64,000 nucleotides of DNA. It comes from a virus. Shown here one piece after another: positions 12,916-28,413 of this stretch (position 1 is its first letter; each line of letters begins with the position of its first letter). The notes under the pieces are model-generated. The model was given only the letters and a program-made list of their open reading frames with translations, searched no databases and was not told the DNA's origin. The position numbers and the translations under genes are program-made. The DNA is taken from positions 109,881-173,880 of the IMG/VR virus record IMGVR_UViG_3300043418_000120; one strand, given 5' to 3'.

Positions 12916-13218
12916 ATGAAGAAGTTTCTAGTTTTACTGTTGGTTGGTTTGAGTTTTGCGGCTCAGGCTCAGCATTATCATGGTGATCATTTTCATCGCG
13001 GAGCCTACTACAACTGGGCTGCTCCAGCAATCATTGGTGGTGTTATTGGATACAGTATGGCTCAGCGCCCTACTACTGTAGTTGTCCAACAGCCACCAGT
13101 CTACGTTCAACAACAGCCAGTCTATGTTGATCGTCCAGGTATTCCTTACGGATACCGTTATGAGAATGTATTGGATGCGAACTGTGGCTGCTACCGAGTA
13201 GTCCTAGTTCCAAACTAA
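12916..13218 (+). CDS. secreted Pro/Val-rich protein
   Basis: signal peptide ending AQA; QQPPVYVQQQPVYV repeat. Confidence 0.7.
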   Translation: MKKFLVLLLVGLSFAAQAQHYHGDHFHRGAYYNWAAPAIIGGVIGYSMAQRPTTVVVQQPPVYVQQQPVYVDRPGIPYGYRYENVLDANCGCYRVVLVPN

Positions 13219-13221
13219 TTG

Positions 13222-13524
13222 TTGTAATCCCTTCAAAGCGAAGGACTTCTGGACGCGGGTTCGACTCCCGCCATCTCCACCACAAGCGCATTGGCGTAGT
13301 ATGAGTACTCTAAAACTCGACTGCGAAAATCTTAGTTCTAGTGTGCTTTTGATGGGGATGCCATGGTTTCGACAGGGGTAGATAGTAGAGACGGCAACAC
13401 GGTAGGCGATGACCGTTAATCAAGCAAATCAAAATAAATGCAAACGAAAGTTCATTTTTGATGGCAGCCTAATCGGCACCATCTGAGTTTCGGTGGGTGT
13501 ACTTGGAAACAGAAACACCTACCA
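13222..13524 (+). ncRNA. ssrA: circularly permuted two-piece tmRNA; tag ANESSFLMAA
   Basis: acceptor piece with T-arm ending CATCTCCACCA (13282) precedes coding piece GGGGATG (13354); G3.U70; tag frame 13440-13472; outer ends approximate. Confidence 0.92.
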
Positions 13525-13525
13525 T

Positions 13526-13533
13526 TATAAATA
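13526..13533 (+). promoter_or_regulatory. T4-type late promoter
   Basis: TATAAATA. Confidence 0.7.
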
Positions 13534-13583
13534 ATTACTTACATCATGAACACACAACTTGATTTACACACACAGGAGTTTAC

Positions 13584-17600: not shown

Positions 17601-17870
17601 TAACCTTACAGTTCGTAAGGTTATCGCTTGACAATAAATTGAATGTCAGGTATAATTGATGTTCTGATGTTGATAAGGTGCTAAAGTTAAAGACCCTACG
17701 GTTCGTAAGGTTACTAAAATTAGTGCTTGACTTAATTGATGACTTCAGTTATAATTGAGGTTCTGATGTGATGTGCTAAGATTGAAGTGCGAAAATTGCT
17801 GAATTGCTATGAACTTCGAAAATAGTGCTTGACATTATAACAGAAATAAGGTATAATTCTTAGTTCTGAT
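17601..17870 (+). promoter_or_regulatory. three tandem sigma70 promoters in about 100-bp units
   Basis: -35/-10 at 17628/17651, 17727/17750, 17829/17852; each followed by GTTCTGATG; palindromes at 17601 and 17693. Confidence 0.8.
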
Positions 17871-17885
17871 GTTCTTTAAAAATTT
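17870..17885 (+). promoter_or_regulatory. rrn-type boxA antitermination element
   Basis: TGTTCTTTAAAAATTT resembles rrn boxA TGCTCTTTAACA; 10 nt before the first tRNA. Confidence 0.65.
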
Positions 17886-17895
17886 ATCGCCATGT

Positions 17896-18373: not shown

Positions 18374-18436
18374 TAGGATAGGTTCTGCAAATAACACTGC
18401 TAACTTTGGATGTCTAGCGACAAAAACTATCCTGTT
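18374..18436 (+). ncRNA. CWGCAA-scaffold ncRNA 1
   Basis: TAGGATAGGTTCTGCAA...AACTATCCTGTT terminal stem. Confidence 0.65.
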
Positions 18437-18740: not shown

Positions 18741-18811
18741 TAGGATGAGTTCTGCAACAAAAATAGAACACCAAACTTTTAATTTGACATGTTCGTCAAA
18801 ATCATCCTGTT
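18741..18811 (+). ncRNA. CWGCAA-scaffold ncRNA 2 with Lys(TTT) anticodon stem-loop
   Basis: TAGGATGAGTTCTGCAA...ATCATCCTGTT; CAAA-CT-TTT-AA-TTTG at 18772-18786. Confidence 0.65.
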
Positions 18812-18817
18812 GTATTT

Positions 18818-18892
18818 GGGGGCAGTAGAGGGCTACGGGTAACCCTTGCAAGGTTGCTGTCTAGATCGGTTCGATACCGACGGTCTCCACCA
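18818..18892 (+). tRNA. atypical tRNA-Ala(TGC)
   Basis: CT-TGC-AA loop, G3.U70, reduced D-arm, CCA. Confidence 0.65.
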
Positions 18893-18979
18893 AGAGCAAA
18901 TAGAAGTCTTGTTTTGATGCATGGCTTCTCAATGTTTGTTAGTTTCAATGGGTGTTATAGAAACTACCACTAATTTTAT

Positions 18980-19054
18980 GCCTTGTTAGCTCAGTGGTAG
19001 AGCTCCCTCCTTACAAGTGGGATGTCGGCGGTTCGAACCCGTCACAAGGTACCA
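18980..19054 (+). tRNA. tRNA-Val(TAC)
   Basis: CT-TAC-AA loop, CCA. Confidence 0.9.
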
Positions 19055-19059
19055 AACAT

Positions 19060-19151
19060 GGAAAGTAATGCAGCTGGGATGGTCCGGCGACCAGCCTTGA
19101 AAACTGGGTTCTCAGAAATGGGATGGGGTTCGACTCCTCTGCTTTCCGCCA
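19060..19151 (+). tRNA. tRNA-Ser(TGA)
   Basis: CT-TGA-AA loop, long variable arm, GCCA. Confidence 0.85.
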
Positions 19152-19156
19152 AAATT

Positions 19157-19231
19157 GCGTTGTAAACTTTGACGATGAAGTCTCGGCTCTTAACCGATGG
19201 GAAGATAGTTTGAATCTATCACGACGCACCA
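19157..19231 (+). tRNA. tRNA-Lys(CTT)
   Basis: CT-CTT-AA loop, CCA; divergent D and T loops. Confidence 0.75.
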
Positions 19232-19293
19232 AAGCCTCGCCATGACACTCGGCGTATAATGAGATAAGTGATGTGTTCCGAAGATTACTTTGG

Positions 19294-19368
19294 GGTGGGT
19301 ATAGTGTAGTGGTAGCACCCAACTCTGTGAAAGTTGTAGTATGGGATCGTTACCCATTATTCACCCCA
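19294..19368 (+). tRNA. tRNA-His(GTG)
   Basis: CT-GTG-AA loop, G-1:C73, T-loop ATCGTTA. Confidence 0.85.
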
Positions 19369-19380
19369 AAGTAATTTTGT

Positions 19381-19456
19381 GCCTCTGTAGTTCAACGGAT
19401 TAGAATACGGTGCTACGAACGCTGAGACGGGAGTTCGATTCTCTCCAGAGGTACCA
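19381..19456 (+). tRNA. tRNA-Arg(ACG)
   Basis: CT-ACG-AA loop, CCA. Confidence 0.9.
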
Positions 19457-19467
19457 AAAAGATTTTC

Positions 19468-19541
19468 GCCCTATTAGTATAATGGCATTACACCTGTTTT
19501 GTAATCAGGTTACGGCAGTTCGATTCTGTCATGGGGCACCA
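19468..19541 (+). tRNA. tRNA-Thr(TGT)
   Basis: TT-TGT-AA loop, CCA. Confidence 0.85.
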
Positions 19542-19550
19542 GTTGACCAT

Positions 19551-19671
19551 TAGGTTCATTTCAGCAATCAAAAATAATCTTTCTGTAAAAAAGAGGGTCT
19601 GGGTTCGAATCCCAGCGGTGAGTTGGTCTTCACTGTGGTGTAATGGTAGCACGAAAAAAGTTGAACCTGTT
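19551..19671 (+). ncRNA. CWGCAA-scaffold ncRNA 3 carrying a complete circularly permuted tRNA-Tyr mimic
   Basis: TAGGTTCA..CAGCAA; anticodon arm (GTA), T-arm, sealed acceptor stem, D-arm; TGAACCTGTT. Confidence 0.75.
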
Positions 19672-19677
19672 TAACAT

Positions 19678-19752
19678 ATCGCATTCGACTTCAGGTGAGG
19701 TCATCAGCCTTTCAAGCTGACTAGACGGGATCGTTACCCGTATGCGATACCA
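19678..19752 (+). tRNA. tRNA-Glu(TTC), second copy
   Basis: CT-TTC-AA loop, T-loop ATCGTTA, CCA. Confidence 0.82.
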
Positions 19753-19760
19753 AGAATTAT

Positions 19761-19839
19761 TCCGTAGAATCCAAGCAAGGTGCAAGGACGTGACTGTTAA
19801 TCACTGATTAGACTGGTTCGATCCCAGTGTACGGAGCCA
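19761..19839 (+). tRNA. tRNA-Asn(GTT), divergent
   Basis: CT-GTT-AA loop, GCCA; atypical D-arm. Confidence 0.72.
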
Positions 19840-19992
19840 GTATTAGTCGGAGTAATTAACCGAAAAGTAAATAGTAGACGATCTCGCCATCTCGGTCGTC
19901 TTTGCAGTGTATACTGCGTCAGCTTGGTTGCACAAGTTGAGAAACACTGGGGTAAGAGTCCCAATTGATCGATGTGCACTAATTGTTTTCGT

Positions 19993-20068
19993 GGGGGTAT
20001 AGCTCATCTGGTAGAGCAGGTGCTTTGCAAGCATCAGGTGGCGGGTTCGAGTCCTGTTGCCTCCACCA
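19993..20068 (+). tRNA. tRNA-Ala(TGC)
   Basis: canonical cloverleaf, G3.U70. Confidence 0.92.
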
Positions 20069-20077
20069 AGTTTTTAT

Positions 20078-20151
20078 CTGGGTATAAGATAGTGGTAGTC
20101 TCCGAGCCTTGGATGCTTGAAGCGGGAGTTCGATTCTCCATTCCCAGACCA
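20078..20151 (+). tRNA. tRNA-Pro(TGG), divergent
   Basis: CT-TGG-AT loop, C1-G72, ACCA. Confidence 0.75.
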
Positions 20152-20160
20152 ATTTTTTGT

Positions 20161-20238
20161 TGGGGTATCGCCTAGTCTGGCCTAAGGCAACGGTCTTTGA
20201 AATCGTCATCATCAGTTCGAATCTGATTACCCCTGCCA
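20161..20238 (+). tRNA. tRNA-Gln(TTG)
   Basis: CT-TTG-AA loop, GCCA. Confidence 0.88.
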
Positions 20239-20257
20239 GTTTTTAAGGAAATTCAAA

Positions 20258-20311
20258 ATGAAAGTATTAAAACGAAAACCCCGAAAGTGTCGAAAGCGCA
20301 TGGGTCTATAG
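20258..20311 (+). CDS. Lys/Arg-rich 17-aa mini-ORF ending inside tRNA-Lys(TTT)
   Basis: SD TAAGGA; MKVLKRKPRKCRKRMGL; stop TAG at tRNA positions 8-10. Confidence 0.4.
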   Translation: MKVLKRKPRKCRKRMGL

Positions 20312-20378
20312 TTTAACGGCAAAAACATCTGGCTTTTAACCAGTAAGACTCTCGGTTCGAATCCGAGTAGACCCACCA
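20302..20378 (+). tRNA. tRNA-Lys(TTT)
   Basis: CT-TTT-AA loop, CCA. Confidence 0.88.
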
Positions 20379-20479
20379 TATAAAAACATACTTGCTGAAG
20401 TTGGTTCAGTTAGACAGGGAGATCCAATTGCCTATGTCGTTGAGTGTGTTTTTATATGGTATATAAGTATATACTACAT

Positions 20480-20554
20480 TCCAGTGTAGCACAGCGGTAG
20501 TGCAGTTGACTGTTAATCAATTGGTCGTTGGTTCGATCCCAGCCACTGGAGCCA
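20480..20554 (+). tRNA. tRNA-Asn(GTT)
   Basis: canonical cloverleaf, GCCA. Confidence 0.92.
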
Positions 20555-20563
20555 AATTTTTAT

Positions 20564-20637
20564 AGCGGGTAGGGTGGTCACCACTCCAGTCTCATAAGCT
20601 CGGAGCATCGGCAGTTCGAATCTGTCACCCGCATCCA
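20564..20637 (+). tRNA. atypical tRNA(CAT), Met/fMet-like
   Basis: CT-CAT-AA loop, A1xA72 mismatch, reduced D-arm, CCA. Confidence 0.6.
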
Positions 20638-20641
20638 TTTT

Positions 20642-20700
20642 TAGGATCCGTCCAGCAAATTACCTAATTCAACTTGTAATTGAAAAATAAGGATCCTGTT
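20642..20700 (+). ncRNA. CWGCAA-scaffold ncRNA 4 with Thr(TGT) anticodon stem-loop
   Basis: TAGGATCCGTCCAGCAA...GGATCCTGTT; TTCAA-CT-TGT-AA-TTGAA at 20668-20684. Confidence 0.7.
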
Positions 20701-20707
20701 GATATTT

Positions 20708-20783
20708 GCCCTTATAGCTCATCTGGTAGAGCAACCGCCTTGTAAGCGGTAGGTGGTCAGTTCGAGTCCGACTGAGGGCACCA
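20708..20783 (+). tRNA. tRNA-Thr(TGT), second copy
   Basis: canonical cloverleaf. Confidence 0.92.
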
Positions 20784-20868: not shown

Positions 20869-20885
20869 ACACTTTGAAAGATAAC

Positions 20886-21149
20886 ATGACAACAATTAAC
20901 CCTATTAAGAACAACTTGTACATTGCTCAGAACAAGAAAGAAGATACCACTGAGATGGGCATCATTATTTCTAATGGTCTTGGTAACACTGCCTCTGCGT
21001 ATGTGTTGGCTATTGGTCCTGACATTACAGAATGTAAAGTAGGTGATACAGTTTATGTTGACTGGTCAAAGAGTTACCCAGTAACTATTGACGGTGCGCA
21101 GCGTGCGATGATCAAGATTGATCATGTGATTGCTGTCGTTGAAGAATAA
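20886..21149 (+). CDS. GroES-like co-chaperonin
   Basis: P...L.I, T..GII, VLAIGP, KVGDTV, ..IAVVE pattern. Confidence 0.75.
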   Translation: MTTINPIKNNLYIAQNKKEDTTEMGIIISNGLGNTASAYVLAIGPDITECKVGDTVYVDWSKSYPVTIDGAQRAMIKIDHVIAVVEE

Positions 21150-21978: not shown

Positions 21979-22479
21979 ATGACAAAAGAAAACAGATTTA
22001 TTGAAAACGTATCCCGCGATGATGCTCGCAAGGGTTGGCACATGGACGCAGGTCCCAATGCTATGCTGATTCAGATCAGTGACCCAGCAGGTGGATTCCC
22101 CGATCCAACTTACAAGTTCAAAGAGATTCACCAGTTTGAATTCTTGGATGCAGAAGATGGCGATCGTTTCCCTGATGAGTGCATGATTCAAGATGAGCAA
22201 GCTGTTGAGTTGGTTCGCCTTCTGCAACATGCCCTTGATAATGCGATGAACGTAGTTGTTCATTGCCATGCTGGTATCTGTCGTAGCGGAGCAGTGGTTG
22301 AAGTTGGAGTCATGATGGGCTTCACTCCTACTGATCGTTTCCGCCAACCAAACCTTCGCGTAAAGCATCGAATGATGAAAGCCTTGGGATGGACATACGA
22401 CTCTGCCGAGAAGCATAGTTCTACTGGTGGCTACATCTCCAACGATGGGATTTGGTTACCAAACAATTTTGGAGTTTGA
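21979..22479 (+). CDS. CX5R (dual-specificity/tyrosine) phosphatase-like protein
   Basis: VHCHAGICRSG motif. Confidence 0.85.
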   Translation: MTKENRFIENVSRDDARKGWHMDAGPNAMLIQISDPAGGFPDPTYKFKEIHQFEFLDAEDGDRFPDECMIQDEQAVELVRLLQHALDNAMNVVVHCHAGICRSGAVVEVGVMMGFTPTDRFRQPNLRVKHRMMKALGWTYDSAEKHSSTGGYISNDGIWLPNNFGV

Positions 22480-22480
22480 T

Positions 22481-23056
22481 ATGGCTGATGTATTTTTCAC
22501 CAGCGACACGCACTTCGGACACATGGGTGTTTGTAAGTTTATGCGCGACGATGGTGTGACGAAGTTGAGACCATGGGATAGTCCTGAAGAAATGGACGAA
22601 GCCATGGTGAAGATGTGGAATGAAACCGTCAAGCCGACAGACAAAGTTTATCATTTGGGTGACGTAGTCATCAATCGAAAGGCTTTGAAGATTATGTCGC
22701 GTTTGAATGGTGATAAGGTTTTGATCAAGGGAAACCATGACATTTTTAGGTTGGAAGATTACACGGAGCATTTCCGCGATATCCGCGCCTACCATGTCAC
22801 CAATGGTATGATCTTGAGTCATATCCCAGTCCACGAAAGTAACTTGTATCGTTTCGGTACAAACATCCATGGTCATACTCATAGTAACCGTGTGATGACA
22901 ACATCAAGGTTTATGCGTCAAGAAATCATTGACCCACGATACCAATGTGTTTGCGTTGAACAAACAGACTTTAAGCCAATCGCGTTTGAAGATGTTATGC
23001 AACGTATCAAAGATGAAGGTGGTACTGTTGGTTTCAGAACCAAGAGTAACAACTGA
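22481..23056 (+). CDS. calcineurin-like metallophosphoesterase
   Basis: SDTHFGH, LGD, GNHD, SH.P, HGHTH motifs. Confidence 0.9.
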   Translation: MADVFFTSDTHFGHMGVCKFMRDDGVTKLRPWDSPEEMDEAMVKMWNETVKPTDKVYHLGDVVINRKALKIMSRLNGDKVLIKGNHDIFRLEDYTEHFRDIRAYHVTNGMILSHIPVHESNLYRFGTNIHGHTHSNRVMTTSRFMRQEIIDPRYQCVCVEQTDFKPIAFEDVMQRIKDEGGTVGFRTKSNN

Positions 23057-23385: not shown

Positions 23386-23610
23386 TAGGATACATTCAGC
23401 AACACAAAATGCAATGAAAGCCTCGTGTCGGTGGTTCAAATCCATCCCCCTTCACTTACCATACCACCTTGACGGTGATACTCAGAATTTGAAACTCTGC
23501 GGCTAATGGTAAGTTGCGTAACAACCAGTGCCTAAACAAGATAGGAAACGCTGGTGTGGTAAGTGAAGGGGTAGCTCAGTTTGGTAGAGCAGAGTAAAAC
23601 GTATCCTGTT
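23386..23610 (+). ncRNA. CWGCAA-scaffold ncRNA 6 (YrlA-like, greatly extended acceptor stem)
   Basis: TAGGATAC..CAGCAA; T-arm GGTGG-TTCAAAT-CCATC; CCCCTTCACTTACCATACCA/TGGTGTGGTAAGTGAAGGGG; D-arm TAGCTCAGTTTGGTAGAGC; GTATCCTGTT. Confidence 0.75.
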
Positions 23611-24017: not shown

Positions 24018-24049
24018 AGAAATTAAGGCGATAAATTTTTAAAGAATAT

Positions 24050-24211: not shown

Positions 24212-24233
24212 TGGTTTTACAAAGGTGATTGAT

Positions 24234-24716
24234 ATGAAAAGAGAAATCGATATCCAAGAAGTTAAAGCGTTCTTAGAAGACTGCGGTCCCGACACTAAAG
24301 TGTACATCGGCTGCGACTCAGAGCGTTATAAAGTTGGCAACCAATGGTTCGCTGATTACATTCTTGCGGTGGTAGTTCATATCAATGGTAAGAACGGCTG
24401 TAAGATTTTCGGTGCGATCCAAAAGGAAATGGACTACGACAAGAAGTTCAACCGCCCACGTATGCGTCTGATGACAGAAGTGTACAAGATCTCCGACTTG
24501 TACTTGCAACTGGCACAAGAAATCCCTAACGAAATCGAAGTTCACTTGGACATTAACCCAAGCGAAATGCACGGCTCATCATGCGTGGTGAACGAAGCGA
24601 TCGGTTACGTTCGTGGTATGTGTAACGTGATTCCTTTGGTCAAGCCACGCGCGTTCGCAGCTTCATATGCTGCTGACCGTATGAAGGACGTCATGGGTAT
24701 GCAGAAAGCTGCCTGA
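24234..24716 (+). CDS. RNase H-like YkuK (DUF458) family protein
   Basis: YIGCDS, RL..EV, EVHLDIN, KP.AFAAS.AAD motifs. Confidence 0.82.
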   Translation: MKREIDIQEVKAFLEDCGPDTKVYIGCDSERYKVGNQWFADYILAVVVHINGKNGCKIFGAIQKEMDYDKKFNRPRMRLMTEVYKISDLYLQLAQEIPNEIEVHLDINPSEMHGSSCVVNEAIGYVRGMCNVIPLVKPRAFAASYAADRMKDVMGMQKAA

Positions 24717-24898
24717 TGGATCCTAGAAAGATACTTCGCATACAAAAGAAAGCGAAACGTCTAAAGCGCAAGCCGTATCCTTTAACCTATGCTGAAATCA
24801 AATGGTTACTGGATACGGCAATTCTTTTGGTTGACGATCTTAATGTACAACTTGAAGAAGTAACAAGAAAGTGTGAGGAAGAACACCCATGGATGTAG
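24716..24898 (+). CDS. small hypothetical protein
   Basis: TGATG coupling; 60 aa. Confidence 0.5.
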   Translation: MDPRKILRIQKKAKRLKRKPYPLTYAEIKWLLDTAILLVDDLNVQLEEVTRKCEEEHPWM

Positions 24899-26376
24899 TA
24901 ATCCTCAACGATTGTGCAAACCCAGTCGACAAACGGCGAGTCAGCCGTTACATTGGACCGTATAAGATCGCTCACCATTTAAGGCAAGCGGGTTATACGG
25001 TCCAAGTCATTGACTTTGTTGCGTTCATGACAGAAGACGAGGTGCTTAAATACCTTCGCAAGTTTGTTAGCGAAGAAACCTTGATGGTTGCTGTCAGCAC
25101 AACATTCCTTGCACAGCGTATTCATAAACAGTCTGATGGGTTCTGGCGAAGAATGCCAGAGACTATCGTTCGATCTCTTAAGACTATTCGCGCAGAAGTT
25201 TCAAAACCAAAATTCGTTCTGGGTGGTTATTTGGCAGAACATATCGAGGGATTCGGTACGATAGATTATCGTATTACCAGTAATGCAGAAGCTACTGTTG
25301 TTGAACTTGTTGATTATTTGGCGGGTGTTAATGATCAACTACCAACCTATGTGTTGCAAGTTCCGATGTTTGATCCACGAAAGAAATTCGCCAAAGTAAT
25401 CACAGCACCTAAACGCCTTCAGTACAACATTGAGACTGAGAATTTTAAATTCAACATACAAGATTGCATTGTTCCTGGGGAAACCTTGCCTCTTGAGGTG
25501 TCGCGAGGGTGTATTTTTAAGTGCAAATTCTGTCAACATGAGAATATTGGTCGTGGTAAGTTGGACTACTTACGTAGTATGGACTGTATTAAAGAAGAGT
25601 TGATTCACAATTACAACACTTGGGGCACTACACGATACTATATCCTTTGTGATACGTTTAATGACACTGAGTATAAGGTACGTCTATGGTATGATATGAC
25701 CAAGACCTTACCTTTCCAGATTCGTTGGAATTCATATATCCGTGTTGATTTGATTCATCGTTATCCAGAGACAGCTATTCTTTTACAGGACAGCGGTATG
25801 GTTGGCGCTTACCATGGTATTGAATCATTACACTCAAAGGCTTCTTCTATTGTTGGAAAGGCTTGGTCTGGTAAACATGCTAAAGAGTATATCCCAAAAT
25901 TATATCATGATATTTGGGGCGGTAAAGTTCAGCAACATTTGAATTTTATTTGTGGGTTACATCCAGAACCGAGAGAGAGTGTTATGGAAACTGCTGACTG
26001 GTTTATCCAGAACGATTTACACAGCATATTCTTTGAGACTCTTGGTTTAATGGAAAATGGTTACCGCCATCAAAGCGAATTCGAGAGAGACGCCACTAAG
26101 TATGGATACAGTTTCTATACGCATGCGAATGGTGAAAGGCACTGGAAGACCGATTACTGGAATTTTGAAGAGGCAGCCGCGCACGCACTCCTTGCAAATT
26201 CACGTGTCAAACCATACACGAAGTTCTCTGGGTGGAGGACGCTGGCATGTGAGTCTGTAGGTATGTCCATGGAGGACGCTGGAGCCCTTGCCAAGGACTT
26301 CAAATTCAACCTTGAGAAGGAGCTGAACGTTCTTTTTGTTCGGAAATACATGAAACTTTTAGACGAAATCGTATAA
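24889..26376 (+). CDS. B12-binding-type radical SAM protein
   Basis: E.SRGCIFKCKFC (CxxxCxxC), DTFND, GIES; N-terminal Rossmann-like region. Confidence 0.85.
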   Translation: MDVVILNDCANPVDKRRVSRYIGPYKIAHHLRQAGYTVQVIDFVAFMTEDEVLKYLRKFVSEETLMVAVSTTFLAQRIHKQSDGFWRRMPETIVRSLKTIRAEVSKPKFVLGGYLAEHIEGFGTIDYRITSNAEATVVELVDYLAGVNDQLPTYVLQVPMFDPRKKFAKVITAPKRLQYNIETENFKFNIQDCIVPGETLPLEVSRGCIFKCKFCQHENIGRGKLDYLRSMDCIKEELIHNYNTWGTTRYYILCDTFNDTEYKVRLWYDMTKTLPFQIRWNSYIRVDLIHRYPETAILLQDSGMVGAYHGIESLHSKASSIVGKAWSGKHAKEYIPKLYHDIWGGKVQQHLNFICGLHPEPRESVMETADWFIQNDLHSIFFETLGLMENGYRHQSEFERDATKYGYSFYTHANGERHWKTDYWNFEEAAAHALLANSRVKPYTKFSGWRTLACESVGMSMEDAGALAKDFKFNLEKELNVLFVRKYMKLLDEIV

Positions 26377-26426: not shown

Positions 26427-26694
26427 GGGATGATTACAGCAGCTAACAACTACTGATCTAAGAGTAGCCCCTATACGGAGGAAACGTCGTAAGGCGTCAA
26501 TTTTGGGGATAGGTAAGATACGACTTTTGCATGCTCTTATGCCTCGCAACACCTAGTAGGAGTTGGAAAGTTAGTGCCCGAATGCACACTGAGAGTCCAT
26601 ACTTTGATTGGAATATGCCAGCGAACTGGATGAGTTTGAGTGGTTCAATTGCACTCTGGTTAGATAAACCGAAAATTACAGAACAAACATCCCG
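26427..26694 (+). ncRNA. CWGCA-scaffold ncRNA 7 (long, divergent)
   Basis: GGGATGATTACAGCAG...AACATCCCG; several internal hairpins; own promoter. Confidence 0.55.
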
Positions 26695-26761: not shown

Positions 26762-26928
26762 TAGGATAGGTTCAGCAAACCAAAACCTCACTGGGCTTCA
26801 TGCCTAGTATCGTATGTGGGGATTGGCCAGTTACACGAAAGTCGTAACAGCTCGCTTTAAATAGCAACGATCCTTACAGCTGAGTTTCGTGTTCTCAGTT
26901 GAAACAAAAAGAAGGAAACTATCCTGTT
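26762..26928 (+). ncRNA. CWGCAA-scaffold ncRNA 8, in the leader of the Ro60-like gene
   Basis: TAGGATAGGTTCAGCAA...AACTATCCTGTT, termini nearly identical to ncRNA 1. Confidence 0.7.
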
Positions 26929-26973: not shown

Positions 26974-28413
26974 ATGTCTACATTTGTAAACGCAATCGCT
27001 AATCAAGAAGCACGTACTGAGAACGGTATGCTTGCTCGTAAGTCCACAGCTTCGGCTTGTGTTGACCTGTTTTTCAAGGCAGGCGCATCTCGTGGCAAGA
27101 ACATCACTCGCGAATTCACAGCAGCTCTAGTAGAGAACGAAGACGTAGCAATGCGCTTGGCTCTATGGCTTCGTGACGCACGTGGTGGCGCTGGTGAACG
27201 TGAGTTGTTCCGTCAAATCATGGCGCACTTGGAATCTTATCGCCCAGAGTTGGCAGCAAAGCTGTTGGCCAAGGTTCCAGAAGTGGGTCGTTGGGATGAC
27301 TTGTTTGTCTTTAAGACAGAGCCTTTGAAGTCACAAGCCTACACAATGTTGGGCGACGCTCTTCGTGAGAAGAACGGTTTGGCTGCAAAGTGGACACCAC
27401 GTAAGGGTGAGGTCGCTCGCGAAATCCGCGAGTTCTTCGGCATGTCTCCAAAGTTCTACCGTAAGTCCTTGGTCGAAATGACAAAGGTTGTTGAACAAGA
27501 AATGTGCGCAAAGAACTGGGACGAAATCAACTTCTCCCATGTTCCATCCGTGGCGGCTGCTCGTTACAAGAAGGCATTCTTCCGTAACACTCCAGAGTAC
27601 GCGAAGTACGTCGCAGAATTGGTGAAGGATCCAAAGGATCGCGCTATGAATGTGAAGGTAAACGCTGGCGCTGTGTTCCCATACGATGTGTTGAAGGGCT
27701 TGATCGGTTCTTACTCTCGTTTGAACTACAACGCTACTCAAGTAAACCTTGTGCAAGCACAATGGGATGCTATGGAAAACTTCGTTGGTGACGCAAACGT
27801 GTTGCCACTGGTTGACGTATCTGGTTCGATGATGTGTAAGGCAGGTGGTGATGGCTCCCAATCAGCAATATCTTGCCTAGACGTAGCGGTTTCGCTGGGT
27901 CTATACTTGGCCGACAAGAACAAGGGTAAGTTCAAGGATACGTTCCTAACTTTCTCTGGTAACCCAGAGCTCTTGAACTTGAAGGGTAACATCGTTGACA
28001 AGGTCAAGCAAATGTCTTCTTCTAACTGGGGAATGAACACTGACTTGGTGAAGGCAATGGACAAGATCCTGAGTACAGCTAAGAATGGTGGTGTTCCTCA
28101 AGAAGAAATGCCAGAAATGTTGCTGATCCTTTCGGACATGCAATTCGATCAATGTGCTCGTTTCGACGACTCTGCGATGAAGATGATGGCGCGTAAGTTT
28201 GAAGACGCAGGATACGAACTGCCAAAGATCGTGTTCTGGAATCTTAACGCAAAGGACAACGTTCCTGTTAAGTACGACACACGTGGTGTGGCTTTGGTAT
28301 CTGGGTTCAGCCCAGCTATCATGGTGGCGGTTCTAGGTGGCGACACTGATAACTTTACACCAGAAGCAATCATGCTGAAGGCATTGATGAACCCACGTTA
28401 CGATCTAGTGTAA
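26974..28413 (+). CDS. DUF2828-type Ro60/TROVE-like protein (helical domain plus vWA)
   Basis: TENG, DLFF, RD.RGG.GER..FR, GRWDD, AAKW.PR, VPS.A motifs; MIDAS DVSGS..T..SD; IVFWNL, VSGFS. Confidence 0.82.
   Translation: MSTFVNAIANQEARTENGMLARKSTASACVDLFFKAGASRGKNITREFTAALVENEDVAMRLALWLRDARGGAGERELFRQIMAHLESYRPELAAKLLAKVPEVGRWDDLFVFKTEPLKSQAYTMLGDALREKNGLAAKWTPRKGEVAREIREFFGMSPKFYRKSLVEMTKVVEQEMCAKNWDEINFSHVPSVAAARYKKAFFRNTPEYAKYVAELVKDPKDRAMNVKVNAGAVFPYDVLKGLIGSYSRLNYNATQVNLVQAQWDAMENFVGDANVLPLVDVSGSMMCKAGGDGSQSAISCLDVAVSLGLYLADKNKGKFKDTFLTFSGNPELLNLKGNIVDKVKQMSSSNWGMNTDLVKAMDKILSTAKNGGVPQEEMPEMLLILSDMQFDQCARFDDSAMKMMARKFEDAGYELPKIVFWNLNAKDNVPVKYDTRGVALVSGFSPAIMVAVLGGDTDNFTPEAIMLKALMNPRYDLV

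What the first reader, a model, noticed from the sequence alone, without database searches (positions are those of the whole stretch)
18741..20700. Minimal anticodon-stem-loop cassettes (Lys UUU and Thr UGU)
Seen: ncRNA 2 holds CAAA-CT-TTT-AA-TTTG and ncRNA 4 holds TTCAA-CT-TGT-AA-TTGAA. Both have exact 7-nt C32-U33-NNN-A37-A38 loops and no other tRNA arms. ncRNA 4 sits 7 nt upstream of a real tRNA-Thr(TGT). ncRNA 1 has a weaker CT-TTG-GA candidate. Established: tRNA-Lys(UUU) is cleaved by PrrC and PARIS AriB. Inference: nuclease sponges or sensors.
Basis: partly seen in the sequence, partly recalled or inferred. Interest (0 to 1): 0.72.

Follow-up and report, generated by a model that had tools for sequence, protein, structure and literature searches.

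The report
Anticodon-loop mimics on phage Y-like RNAs
Two small RNAs tucked between the tRNA genes of a T4-like phage each hold out a bare copy of a tRNA anticodon hairpin (lysine, threonine) on a conserved "handle" that most likely docks on the phage's Ro60-like ring protein. They look like baits for proteins that read or cut anticodons, but that use is untested.

Summary
They are the variable cargo of a family of eight RNAs. Each RNA has a covarying 7-bp terminal stem, then NNN-CWGCAA inside the 5' strand and GUU after the 3' strand. These RNAs sit in fixed slots between tRNAs or just upstream of a DUF2828/DUF7788 gene, whose AlphaFold model matches only Ro60/TROVE structures over its whole length.

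In 80 related viral contigs, 76 of 279 distinct elements carry a hairpin of at least 4 bp with a CU-NNN-AA loop. Shuffles give 2.2 and the reverse complement gives 1. Stems covary, position 34 avoids A, and the triplet changes within one orthologous slot.

Caveats:
- The stems are AU-only. Thermodynamic folding and RNAalifold do not predict them.
- The ncRNA 1 candidate is not an anticodon arm.
- The position next to tRNA-Thr is coincidental.

The commonest bare loops are Thr-UGU, Lys-UUU and Asn-GUU, the three main targets of the PARIS nuclease AriB. That is suggestive only; the decoy role stays an inference.

This scan has seen the same handle RNAs and anticodon cargo in other phage genomes. 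I found them in neither Rfam nor the papers searched.

The parts
18742..18808 (+). Handle RNA copy 2: terminal stem AGGATGA/TCATCCT, then GTT-CTGCAA, cargo, and GTTG after the 3' strand
   Evidence: It lies 6 nt after tRNA-Asp.
18772..18786 (+). Anticodon-arm mimic of copy 2: CAAA-CTTTTAA-TTTG ('Lys UUU')
   Evidence: Its homologues carry CTTTTAA, CTCTTAA, CTGTTAA or CCGTTAA, with one compensatory stem change (CAAT/ATTG in L025). Pair probability is below 1% in ViennaRNA.
20643..20697 (+). Handle RNA copy 4: terminal stem AGGATCC/GGATCCT, then GTC-CAGCAA, cargo, and GTTG after the 3' strand
   Evidence: It lies 6 nt after tRNA-Met and 11 nt before tRNA-Thr. It gives a sub-threshold Rfam RF01414 hit of 23.5 bits.
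20668..20684 (+). Anticodon-arm mimic of copy 4: TTCAA-CTTGTAA-TTGAA ('Thr UGU')
   Evidence: The CTTGTAA loop occurs in 23 distinct homologous elements on 4 different stems (for example TCAAA/TTTGA and TACAA/TTGTA).
19552..19668 (+). Handle RNA copy 3: circularly permuted tRNA-like body (anticodon arm 19578-19594 with CTGTAAA, then T arm, closed acceptor stem and D arm)
   Evidence: minimum-free-energy fold
18375..18433 (+). Handle RNA copy 1: cargo is a GCTA/TAGC hairpin with a 12-nt loop ACTTTGGATGTC, which is not an anticodon-type loop
21235..21336 (+). Handle RNA copy 5: YrlA-like cargo (T arm, closed acceptor stem, D arm)
23387..23607 (+). Handle RNA copy 6: T arm, long extended helix and D arm
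26427..26693 (+). Divergent handle RNA copy 7 (GGGATG...CATCCC, with TTACAGCAG) behind its own TTGACT/TATAAT promoter
   Evidence: read directly from the sequence
26763..26925 (+). Handle RNA copy 8 (AGGATAG/CTATCCT, with GTTCAGCAA) behind its own promoter, 48 nt upstream of the Ro60-like gene
26974..28413 (+). Ro60-like protein gene (Pfam DUF2828 + DUF7788; vWA MIDAS motif DVSGS)
   Evidence: Pfam. (AlphaFold model: pLDDT 72, pTM 0.72). (top 13 PDB hits are all Ro60/TROVE, E 3e-9 to 5e-6, over the whole length). (invariant D281, S283, S285).

Best explanation
Copies 2 and 4 are small RNAs of about 60-70 nt from a phage family related to Y RNAs.

Anatomy and release. A conserved handle brings the 5' and 3' ends together. 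It consists of a 7-bp terminal stem, NNN-CWGCAA just inside the 5' strand, and GUU after the 3' strand. The RNAs sit in fixed slots of the tRNA array, so ordinary tRNA end-processing would release them (inferred).

Likely protein partner. The handle is most likely the docking site for the Ro60-like ring protein encoded at 26974-28413. This is inferred from conserved gene-RNA linkage across distant phages.

Cargo. The variable interior of copies 2 and 4 is an anticodon-arm mimic: a short AU-rich stem with a 7-nt loop that keeps C32, U33, A37 and A38 and varies the triplet. This is shown by comparative analysis.

Proposed role. The particle presents the loop to a protein that recognises anticodon loops. 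My leading guess is a host tRNA-cutting defence nuclease, which the RNA would bind or absorb so that real tRNAs are spared. This bait role is inferred and untested.

Sub-claim odds:
- Real, selected anticodon-loop mimics: about 0.8.
- Y-like partners of the Ro60-like protein: about 0.75.
- Bait for anticodon nucleases specifically: about 0.3.
For: Family:
- The whole 173,880-bp virus record has 7 exact handle matches. All are on the + strand and all lie inside this window.
- The 80 related loci plus the window gave 336 + strand elements and 40 - strand elements.
- The terminal stem has compensatory changes at 6 of 7 pairs. Pairing itself was a search criterion.

Fixed slots: the stem starts 6-7 nt after the upstream tRNA in 96 elements and ends 10-12 nt before the next tRNA in 84.

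Anticodon mimicry:
- 76 of 279 distinct elements carry a CU-NNN-AA hairpin, against 2.15 in shuffles.
- The triplets take 17 different values.
- On an alignment not selected for hairpins, 76.6% of helix cells pair, against 55% in shuffles (0 of 500 reach it) and at most 59% when the partner columns are slid.
- A34 occurs in 3 of 82 loops, in sequence that is 46% A.
- One orthologous stem, TTTCA/TGAAA, carries CTGTTAA, CTGTCAA, CTGAAAA or CTGCAAA in different phages.

Protein:
- The fold matches only Ro60/TROVE over its full length, and the MIDAS motif is kept.
- The gene occurs in 711 GenBank phage records, some annotated 'Ro-like RNA binding protein'.

Linkage. CAGCAA handle RNAs lie directly beside this gene in four distant phages:
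- E. coli phage wV8: 4 copies.
- Mycobacteriophage JoeDirt: 3 copies, one with TTTCA-ATGGTAA-TGAAA.
- Listeria phage LP-125: 3 copies.
- Synechococcus phage BUCT-ZZ01: one copy with TTTCAA-CTTTTAC-TTGAAA.

Bait idea:
- In 36 loci with at least 25 tRNAs, the loops seen are UGU in 23, UUU in 11 and GUU in 6. These are AriB's three main targets (PMC12409363).
- Phages with a mimic nearly always also carry the matching real tRNA, so the mimics are additions and not leftovers.
Against: - ViennaRNA gives the anticodon-like pairs less than 1% probability in copies 2 and 4, and the isolated hairpins have no predicted stability.
- RNAalifold predicts only the terminal stem, even on a subset chosen for the hairpin.
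- The stems contain almost no G-C pairs, unlike real anticodon stems.
- The copy 2 hairpin overlaps a second conserved hairpin.
- The elements are related by descent, so raw counts overstate the number of independent events.
- Triplets are limited to U36 or A36, which AU-rich composition could partly explain.
- AriB needs determinants outside the anticodon loop. The host and its defences are unknown.
- There are no expression or binding data.
- Felix O1-like and Cronobacter phage copies mostly lack CU-NNN-AA cargo.
Confidence: 0.4

Rival explanations
1. Adaptor or gate instead of decoy. As with known Y RNAs, the cargo tethers the Ro60-like ring to a partner that handles tRNA (a modification enzyme, synthetase, repair ligase or exonuclease). 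Alternatively it acts as a pseudo-substrate that gates the ring's access to damaged or misfolded tRNAs. On this view the particle looks after the phage's own large tRNA set.
For: - Known Y RNAs tether Ro60 to PNPase, and YrlA tRNA-like domains are substrates of TruB and DusA (PMC4201824; PMC12135203).
- Sister copies 3, 5 and 6 carry whole tRNA-like bodies.
- All triplets end in U36 or A36 followed by A37. From general knowledge, this is the class of tRNAs that receives t6A or i6A at position 37.
- Listeria phage LP-125 has an RtcB ligase 1.3 kb from the gene.
- This phage has an Rnl2-type RNA ligase.
Against: - No partner enzyme is linked in this window.
- A bare AU-rich hairpin is a poor substrate for most enzymes that read the whole tRNA.
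- This rival does not explain why the triplet changes between close relatives.
Confidence: 0.25
2. Evolutionary leftovers. The hairpins are remnants of anticodon arms from permuted tRNA-like cargo (as in copy 3) that lost the rest of the body. They are kept only as a spacer that holds the handle in shape.
For: - Short and long elements share arms. For example, CTTTT-CTGTAAA-AAAAG occurs in short elements of L074 and L075, and a CTGTAAA arm occurs in copy 3.
- The stems are weak.
Against: - C32, U33, A37 and A38 are kept while the stems covary and the triplet changes.
- A34 is avoided.
- The loop size is 7 nt far more often than any other size.
- A neutral spacer should not keep these features across proteins only 57-88% identical.
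Confidence: 0.12
3. Processing punctuation. The elements are spacer hairpins that guide RNase cleavage of the polycistronic tRNA transcript and have no function once released.
For: - They have fixed distances to the flanking tRNAs.
- They all lie on the tRNA strand.
Against: - Copies 7 and 8 have their own promoters away from tRNAs.
- In JoeDirt and LP-125 the RNAs sit beside the Ro60-like gene and not between tRNAs.
- The CAGCAA handle is conserved across phages of four bacterial phyla together with the protein.
- Most tRNA junctions in the array have no such element.
Confidence: 0.05

Closest known systems
Bacterial and phage Y RNAs (YrlA/YrlB, Yrn1; phiLo Yrl1/2) with Ro60/Rsr (PMC4201824; PMC12135203; Rfam RF02553)
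   Same: - The ends are joined in a terminal stem, with a short conserved motif on the 5' strand next to it.
- The second module is variable.
- At least one RNA per genome carries a T arm, a closed acceptor stem and a D arm.
- The RNA genes lie next to a gene for a ring-shaped TROVE + vWA protein.
- Yrn1 was already drawn with an anticodon-like arm (5 bp, 6-nt loop).
   Different: - The motif is CWGCAA, not GNCGAA/CGAA.
- The protein matches Pfam DUF2828/DUF7788, not TROVE, and resembles Ro60 only by fold.
- The Rfam YrlA model does not hit any of the eight copies. Its weak hits are junctions between neighbouring tRNAs.
- There are up to eight copies, placed in tRNA-array slots.
- Some copies carry only a bare anticodon arm with a proper 7-nt loop. 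I did not find this described.
Class I RNAs of dictyostelid social amoebae (Rfam RF01414; PMC7919456)
   Same: - About 60 nt long, with a short stem joining the ends.
- A conserved 11-nt motif ending in ...C..CAA lies next to the 5' strand.
- The interior is variable and the 3' end reads CUGU.
- RF01414 is the only Rfam family that aligns end to end with the short elements: 23.5 bits on copy 4 and up to 33.9 bits on homologues. All such hits are on the + strand and all fall on my elements.
   Different: - All scores are below the gathering score of 41.5.
- Class I RNAs are eukaryotic, have their own DUSE promoter, and bind an RRM protein (Rnp1A).
- No anticodon-like cargo is described for them.
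- Common descent is not shown.
Nuclease-resistant phage tRNAs that defeat tRNA-cutting defences (T5 tRNA-Lys/Thr/Asn against PARIS AriB; PMC11464382, PMC12409363)
   Same: - Both are phage-encoded RNAs in a tRNA array.
- They carry the same three anticodons: UUU, UGU and GUU.
   Different: - The T5 RNAs are complete, chargeable tRNAs that replace the cut host tRNAs.
- Copies 2 and 4 cannot be charged. They could only bind or absorb a nuclease.

Membership tests
Y RNA / Ro60 particle (YrlA type) | A Ro60 (TROVE HEAT-repeat ring + vWA) protein is encoded beside the RNA genes | tested here: met
   The top 13 Foldseek PDB hits are all Ro60/TROVE over about 520-560 columns, and the MIDAS motif DVSGS is invariant. 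At sequence level only DUF2828/DUF7788 match, and a profile search of PDB sequences finds no Ro60.
Y RNA / Ro60 particle (YrlA type) | 5' and 3' ends paired in a stem, with the conserved GNCGAA/CGAA motif on the 5' side | tested here: not met
   The stem is present and covaries, but the motif is CWGCAA in all copies.
Y RNA / Ro60 particle (YrlA type) | Reaches the Rfam YrlA (RF02553) gathering score of 69 bits | tested here: not met
   None of the eight copies is hit. The weak hits of 20-31 bits are junctions of adjacent tRNAs.
Y RNA / Ro60 particle (YrlA type) | tRNA-like domain (T arm, closed acceptor stem, D arm) in at least one RNA of the genome | tested here: met
   Present in copies 3, 5 and 6 and absent from copies 2 and 4.
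Y RNA / Ro60 particle (YrlA type) | The RNA is physically bound by the Ro60 protein | not testable with these tools
   Only conserved linkage across distant phages is available.
tRNA | Anticodon arm: stem of about 5 bp and a 7-nt loop with U33 and a purine at 37 | tested here: met
   Copy 4 has 5 bp and CUUGUAA. Copy 2 has 4 bp and CUUUUAA.
tRNA | Acceptor stem ending in NCCA, plus D and T arms; detected by tRNA scanners | tested here: not met
   Copies 2 and 4 are not called by ARAGORN or Rfam tRNA models. The 3' tail is GUUG, and there are no T or D arms.
Dictyostelid Class I RNA (RF01414) | Reaches the Rfam gathering score of 41.5 bits | tested here: not met
   23.5 bits on copy 4 and 24.5-33.9 bits on six homologous elements.
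Dictyostelid Class I RNA (RF01414) | Short terminal stem, conserved motif ending in CAA beside the 5' strand, about 60 nt long, 3' CUGU | tested here: met
   Read from the sequences and compared with the description in PMC7919456.
Decoy for anticodon nucleases (no established family) | Is bound or cut by a tRNA anticodon nuclease and competes with its tRNA substrate | not testable with these tools
   Only the overlap of triplets with AriB's targets is available.

The most novel reading that the evidence does not exclude
Phages with large tRNA arrays carry an RNA-based anti-defence kit. A Ro60-like ring holds a set of interchangeable handle RNAs, and each bare anticodon loop neutralises, or reports on, one host anticodon nuclease specificity (for example a PARIS-like Lys/Thr/Asn cutter). 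Point changes in the triplet would re-aim the bait as host defences change.
Probability: 0.25. Interest if true: 0.9.

Novelty: new variant of a known kind. Interest (0 to 1): 0.7.

Why it matters
- tRNA-cutting enzymes are now recognised as a major class of anti-phage defence. The known phage answers are replacement tRNAs and RNA repair.
- A protein-held RNA that shows only the anticodon loop would be a third answer.
- It would also give the long-puzzling bacterial and phage Ro60/Y-RNA particles a concrete job.
- The Ro60-like gene is in 711 GenBank phage records.
- Handle RNAs sit beside that gene in four culturable phages: wV8 (Felix O1-like, on E. coli), Listeria phage LP-125, mycobacteriophage JoeDirt and Synechococcus phage BUCT-ZZ01. 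The idea can therefore be tested directly in laboratory strains.
- If the loops turn out to bind modification enzymes or synthetases instead, they would still define a new kind of modular tRNA mimic.

Tried and rejected
- Minimum-free-energy folding of copies 2 and 4 gives other pairings. The alternative pairing in copy 4 (AAUUAC/GUAAUU) is absent from its homologues, so I did not adopt it.
- RNAalifold predicted only the terminal stem, both on 103 short elements and on a 45-sequence subset chosen for the hairpin.
- I tested whether the mimic matches its neighbouring tRNA. The triplet equals the downstream tRNA's anticodon in 3 of 59 cases and the upstream one in 4 of 59. The Thr-next-to-Thr arrangement of copy 4 is therefore coincidental.
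- I tested whether mimics replace lost tRNA genes. They do not, because the real tRNA is nearly always present as well.
- ncRNA 1 as a Gln-like anticodon loop is rejected, because its loop is 12-14 nt.
- Megablast of the region against GenBank phages matched only tRNA genes.
- A profile search of PDB sequences with the protein alignment found no Ro60.
- The DUF2828 literature search returned only plant and tardigrade papers that merely mention the domain.
- RtcB was not found in the genome. The Rnl1 search was uninformative because its control did not ring.
- Vibrio phage nt-1 and Cronobacter phage S13 showed no short anticodon-type copies in the stretches I fetched.
- My first own-genome pattern was mistyped and found nothing. 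It was corrected.
Full report
**Setting.** The window is the last 64 kb of a 173,880-bp IMG/VR virus record. The phage is T4-like: Pfam finds gp32, gp59, gp5, gp6, a T4 baseplate protein, T4 RNase H and PhoH. Between 17.9 and 24.2 kb lies an array of 29 tRNA genes called by ARAGORN, and a permuted tmRNA lies at about 13.2-13.6 kb.

**The observation.**
- Copy 2: CAAA-CTTTTAA-TTTG at 18772-18786.
- Copy 4: TTCAA-CTTGTAA-TTGAA at 20668-20684.
- Neither element is called as a tRNA, and neither has a T, D or acceptor arm.
- tRNA-Thr(TGT) begins at 20708.
- A third anticodon-like arm (CTGTAAA loop, 19578-19594) sits in copy 3, which folds as a complete circularly permuted tRNA body.

**What carries the hairpins.** Repeat finding and a pattern search show a family of elements with one layout: a 7-nt arm, three bases, C(A/T)GCAA, an A-rich linker, variable cargo, an A-rich linker, the complementary arm, then GTT.
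- The whole virus record holds seven exact matches. All are on the + strand and all are inside this window.
- A divergent eighth copy lies at 26427-26693.
- Copies 1-6 occupy slots in the tRNA array. Copies 7 and 8 each have their own TTGACT/TATAAT promoter and lie just upstream of the 479-aa ORF at 26974-28413.

**The protein.**
- Pfam finds DUF2828 and DUF7788 in that ORF.
- A profile search against PDB sequences finds nothing meaningful.
- An AlphaFold model built on 22 homologues (pLDDT 72, pTM 0.72) matches only Ro60/TROVE structures in its top 13 Foldseek hits. These include Thermus phage phiLo Ro60, Xenopus and human Ro60 and Deinococcus Rsr, over the whole length, at E 3e-9 to 5e-6. 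Isolated vWA domains come next.
- The vWA MIDAS motif DVSGS is invariant.
- tblastn finds the gene in 711 GenBank phage records. Some are annotated 'Ro-like RNA binding protein'.

**Linkage of RNA and protein.** I fetched the gene's neighbourhood in distant cultured phages and searched for 'arm-NNN-CWGCAA ... arm'.
- E. coli phage wV8 has four copies (AGACCnnn...nnnGGTCT-GGT) in the first kilobase of the tRNA array, which starts right after the gene. One copy is a permuted tRNA-like body.
- Mycobacteriophage JoeDirt has three copies directly downstream of the gene. One has a T arm, closed acceptor stem and D arm, and one has TTTCA-ATGGTAA-TGAAA.
- Listeria phage LP-125 has three copies directly upstream, and an RtcB ligase lies 1.3 kb away.
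- Synechococcus phage BUCT-ZZ01 has several copies, including TTTCAA-CTTTTAC-TTGAAA.

The handle therefore travels with the protein across phages of four bacterial phyla. That is the basis for calling the RNAs its likely partners. Binding itself is not shown.

**Are the anticodon-like hairpins real?** Eighty related loci were fetched through the protein, at 57-88% identity.
- A script found 336 elements on the gene's strand and 40 on the other strand, giving 279 distinct sequences.
- 76 distinct elements contain a hairpin of at least 4 bp with a CT-NNN-AA loop. Shuffled interiors give 2.15 (maximum 8), reversed sequences give 1 and reverse complements give 1.
- Seventeen different triplets occur in such loops. 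The leaders are TGT (23 elements on 4 different stems), TCT, TTT, GTT and GTA.
- Among 104 short elements, 7 nt is by far the commonest loop size for the longest hairpin.
- In the 82 short elements with a 7-nt loop, the frequencies are C32 65%, T33 82%, A37 77% and A38 83%. The interiors are 15% C, 28% T and 46% A. A34 occurs in only 3 of 82.
- On a MAFFT alignment of 103 short elements not selected for any hairpin, the five stem columns pair in 76.6% of cells. Shuffles give 55% (0 of 500 reach the observed value) and slid partner columns give at most 59%. All five pairs show double changes.
- Within one orthologous slot, the same stem TTTCA/TGAAA carries CTGTTAA, CTGTCAA, CTGAAAA or CTGCAAA in different phages. 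The triplet moves while the frame of the loop stays fixed.
- In the six-member copy 2 group, the loop reads CTTTTAA, CTCTTAA, CTGTTAA or CCGTTAA, and the stem has one compensatory change.

**Weak points.**
- The stems are almost purely A-U.
- ViennaRNA gives the pairs less than 1% probability in copies 2 and 4 and no stability to the isolated hairpins.
- RNAalifold predicts only the terminal stem.
- The copy 2 arm overlaps a second hairpin that also has a compensatory change.
- Perfect pairing of the terminal stem was a search criterion, so only its covariation counts as evidence, not its 100% pairing.
- The elements are related by descent, so the counts are not independent events.
- The ncRNA 1 candidate fails: its conserved loop is 12-14 nt.
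- Sitting beside tRNA-Thr is not a general feature, since the triplet matches the downstream tRNA in 3 of 59 cases.

**How it probably works.** The elements start 6-7 nt after the upstream tRNA and end 10-12 nt before the next one. Normal tRNA end-processing would therefore free them as RNAs of about 60-70 nt (inferred).

By analogy with Y RNAs, the handle would dock on the Ro60-like ring and the cargo would meet a second protein. In known Y RNAs the terminal stem and an adjacent 5' motif bind Ro60, and the other module tethers a partner such as PNPase (PMC4201824; PMC12135203).

Sister copies carry whole tRNA-like bodies, so the family displays tRNA parts. For the bare anticodon loops I favour a bait role against proteins that act on anticodon loops, with host anticodon nucleases as the leading candidate. 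Two observations point that way:
- In 36 loci with at least 25 tRNAs, the loops are UGU in 23, UUU in 11 and GUU in 6. These are the three main substrates of PARIS AriB, and the mimics keep the U36-A-A-U39 string near the AriB cut site (PMC12409363).
- Phages with a mimic also keep the matching real tRNA, so the mimics are additions and not remnants.

Against this reading:
- The same paper shows that AriB needs contacts beyond the loop.
- The host is unknown.
- The overlap of triplets was noticed after the fact, in AU-rich sequence.
- A tethering or gating role in tRNA care fits the data almost as well.

**Comparison with what is known.** The closest system is Ro60 with YrlA-type Y RNAs, but three defining tests are not met:
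- The 5' motif differs (CWGCAA, not GNCGAA).
- The Rfam YrlA model does not hit any copy.
- The protein is not a Pfam TROVE member.

The only Rfam family that aligns end to end with the short elements is the dictyostelid Class I RNA. It always scores below threshold (23.5-33.9 bits against 41.5) and always falls exactly on my elements. Its published description matches the handle layout: a short terminal stem, an adjacent conserved motif ending in CAA, about 60 nt, and a 3' CUGU (PMC7919456). I do not claim common descent.

Literature searches found phage Ro60/Y RNA work and genome notes that name a 'Ro-like' protein. They found no description of handle RNAs with bare anticodon loops.

Earlier notes of this scan report the same handle RNAs and anticodon cargo in other phage genomes. 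I treated those notes as leads. Here I re-tested the Ro60 fold, the linkage of handle and gene, the loop bias and the Class I resemblance.

**Verdict.** The 'minimal anticodon stem-loop' reading is supported by comparative evidence despite weak predicted stability. The 'nuclease sponge' reading is plausible and testable but unproven. It is a new variant of the Ro60/Y-RNA kind of particle.

Noticed in passing
window 18820-18892, 19060-19150, 19155-19237, 19760-19840: Four tRNA-sized stretches end in CCA and have T arms and anticodon-type loops (CTTGCAA, CTTGAAA, CTCTTAA, CTGTTAA), yet ARAGORN and the Rfam tRNA model do not call them. 19060-19147 scores 33 bits with the tRNA-Sec model. They are probably odd or decaying tRNA genes.
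   Followed up: partly
window 17869-17891 and 24027-24049: A 23-nt inverted repeat, 96% complementary, brackets almost the whole tRNA array, with the arms 6135 nt apart. Its meaning is unknown. It could mark a cassette boundary or form a long-range RNA pairing.
   Followed up: no
window 18399-18418 (copy 1) and homologues; L092 2665-2720: A second recurrent cargo is a hairpin whose loop contains UUUGG(A/U)U. It is conserved in the copy 1 group. Similar UUGGA loops occur in other slots and in a Listeria phage LP-125 handle RNA. It is not an anticodon-type loop, and what it imitates is unknown.
   Followed up: partly
window 13158-13563: A two-piece (permuted) tmRNA gene with tag ANESSFLMAA. It scores 140 bits with the betaproteobacterial tmRNA model, a possible hint to the host.
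   Followed up: no
window 17626, 17725, 17827, 21942, 26384, 26712: Repeated near-consensus promoters (GCTTGAC-N17-TATAAT) occur three times in tandem ahead of the tRNA array, once inside it, and once each ahead of handle RNAs 7 and 8.
   Followed up: no
window 20874-21149, 21979-23056, 24225-24716, 24889-26376: Protein genes are interleaved with the tRNA and handle-RNA region: a Cpn10-like ORF, a dual-specificity phosphatase-like ORF, a calcineurin-like phosphoesterase, an RNase H-like PF04308 protein and a 495-aa radical SAM protein. The phosphatase and phosphoesterase could be RNA end-healing enzymes.
   Followed up: no
L092 (Listeria phage LP-125) 5855-7066: An RtcB-like RNA ligase lies 1.3 kb downstream of the Ro60-like gene. 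This echoes the rsr-yrlBA-rtcBA operon of Salmonella.
   Followed up: no
L090 (E. coli phage wV8) 13755-14529: Four unannotated CAGCAA-handle RNAs lie in the tRNA array of a Felix O1-like coliphage. Some are overlapped by annotated hypothetical ORFs or gaps. This is a tractable model for the family.
   Followed up: partly
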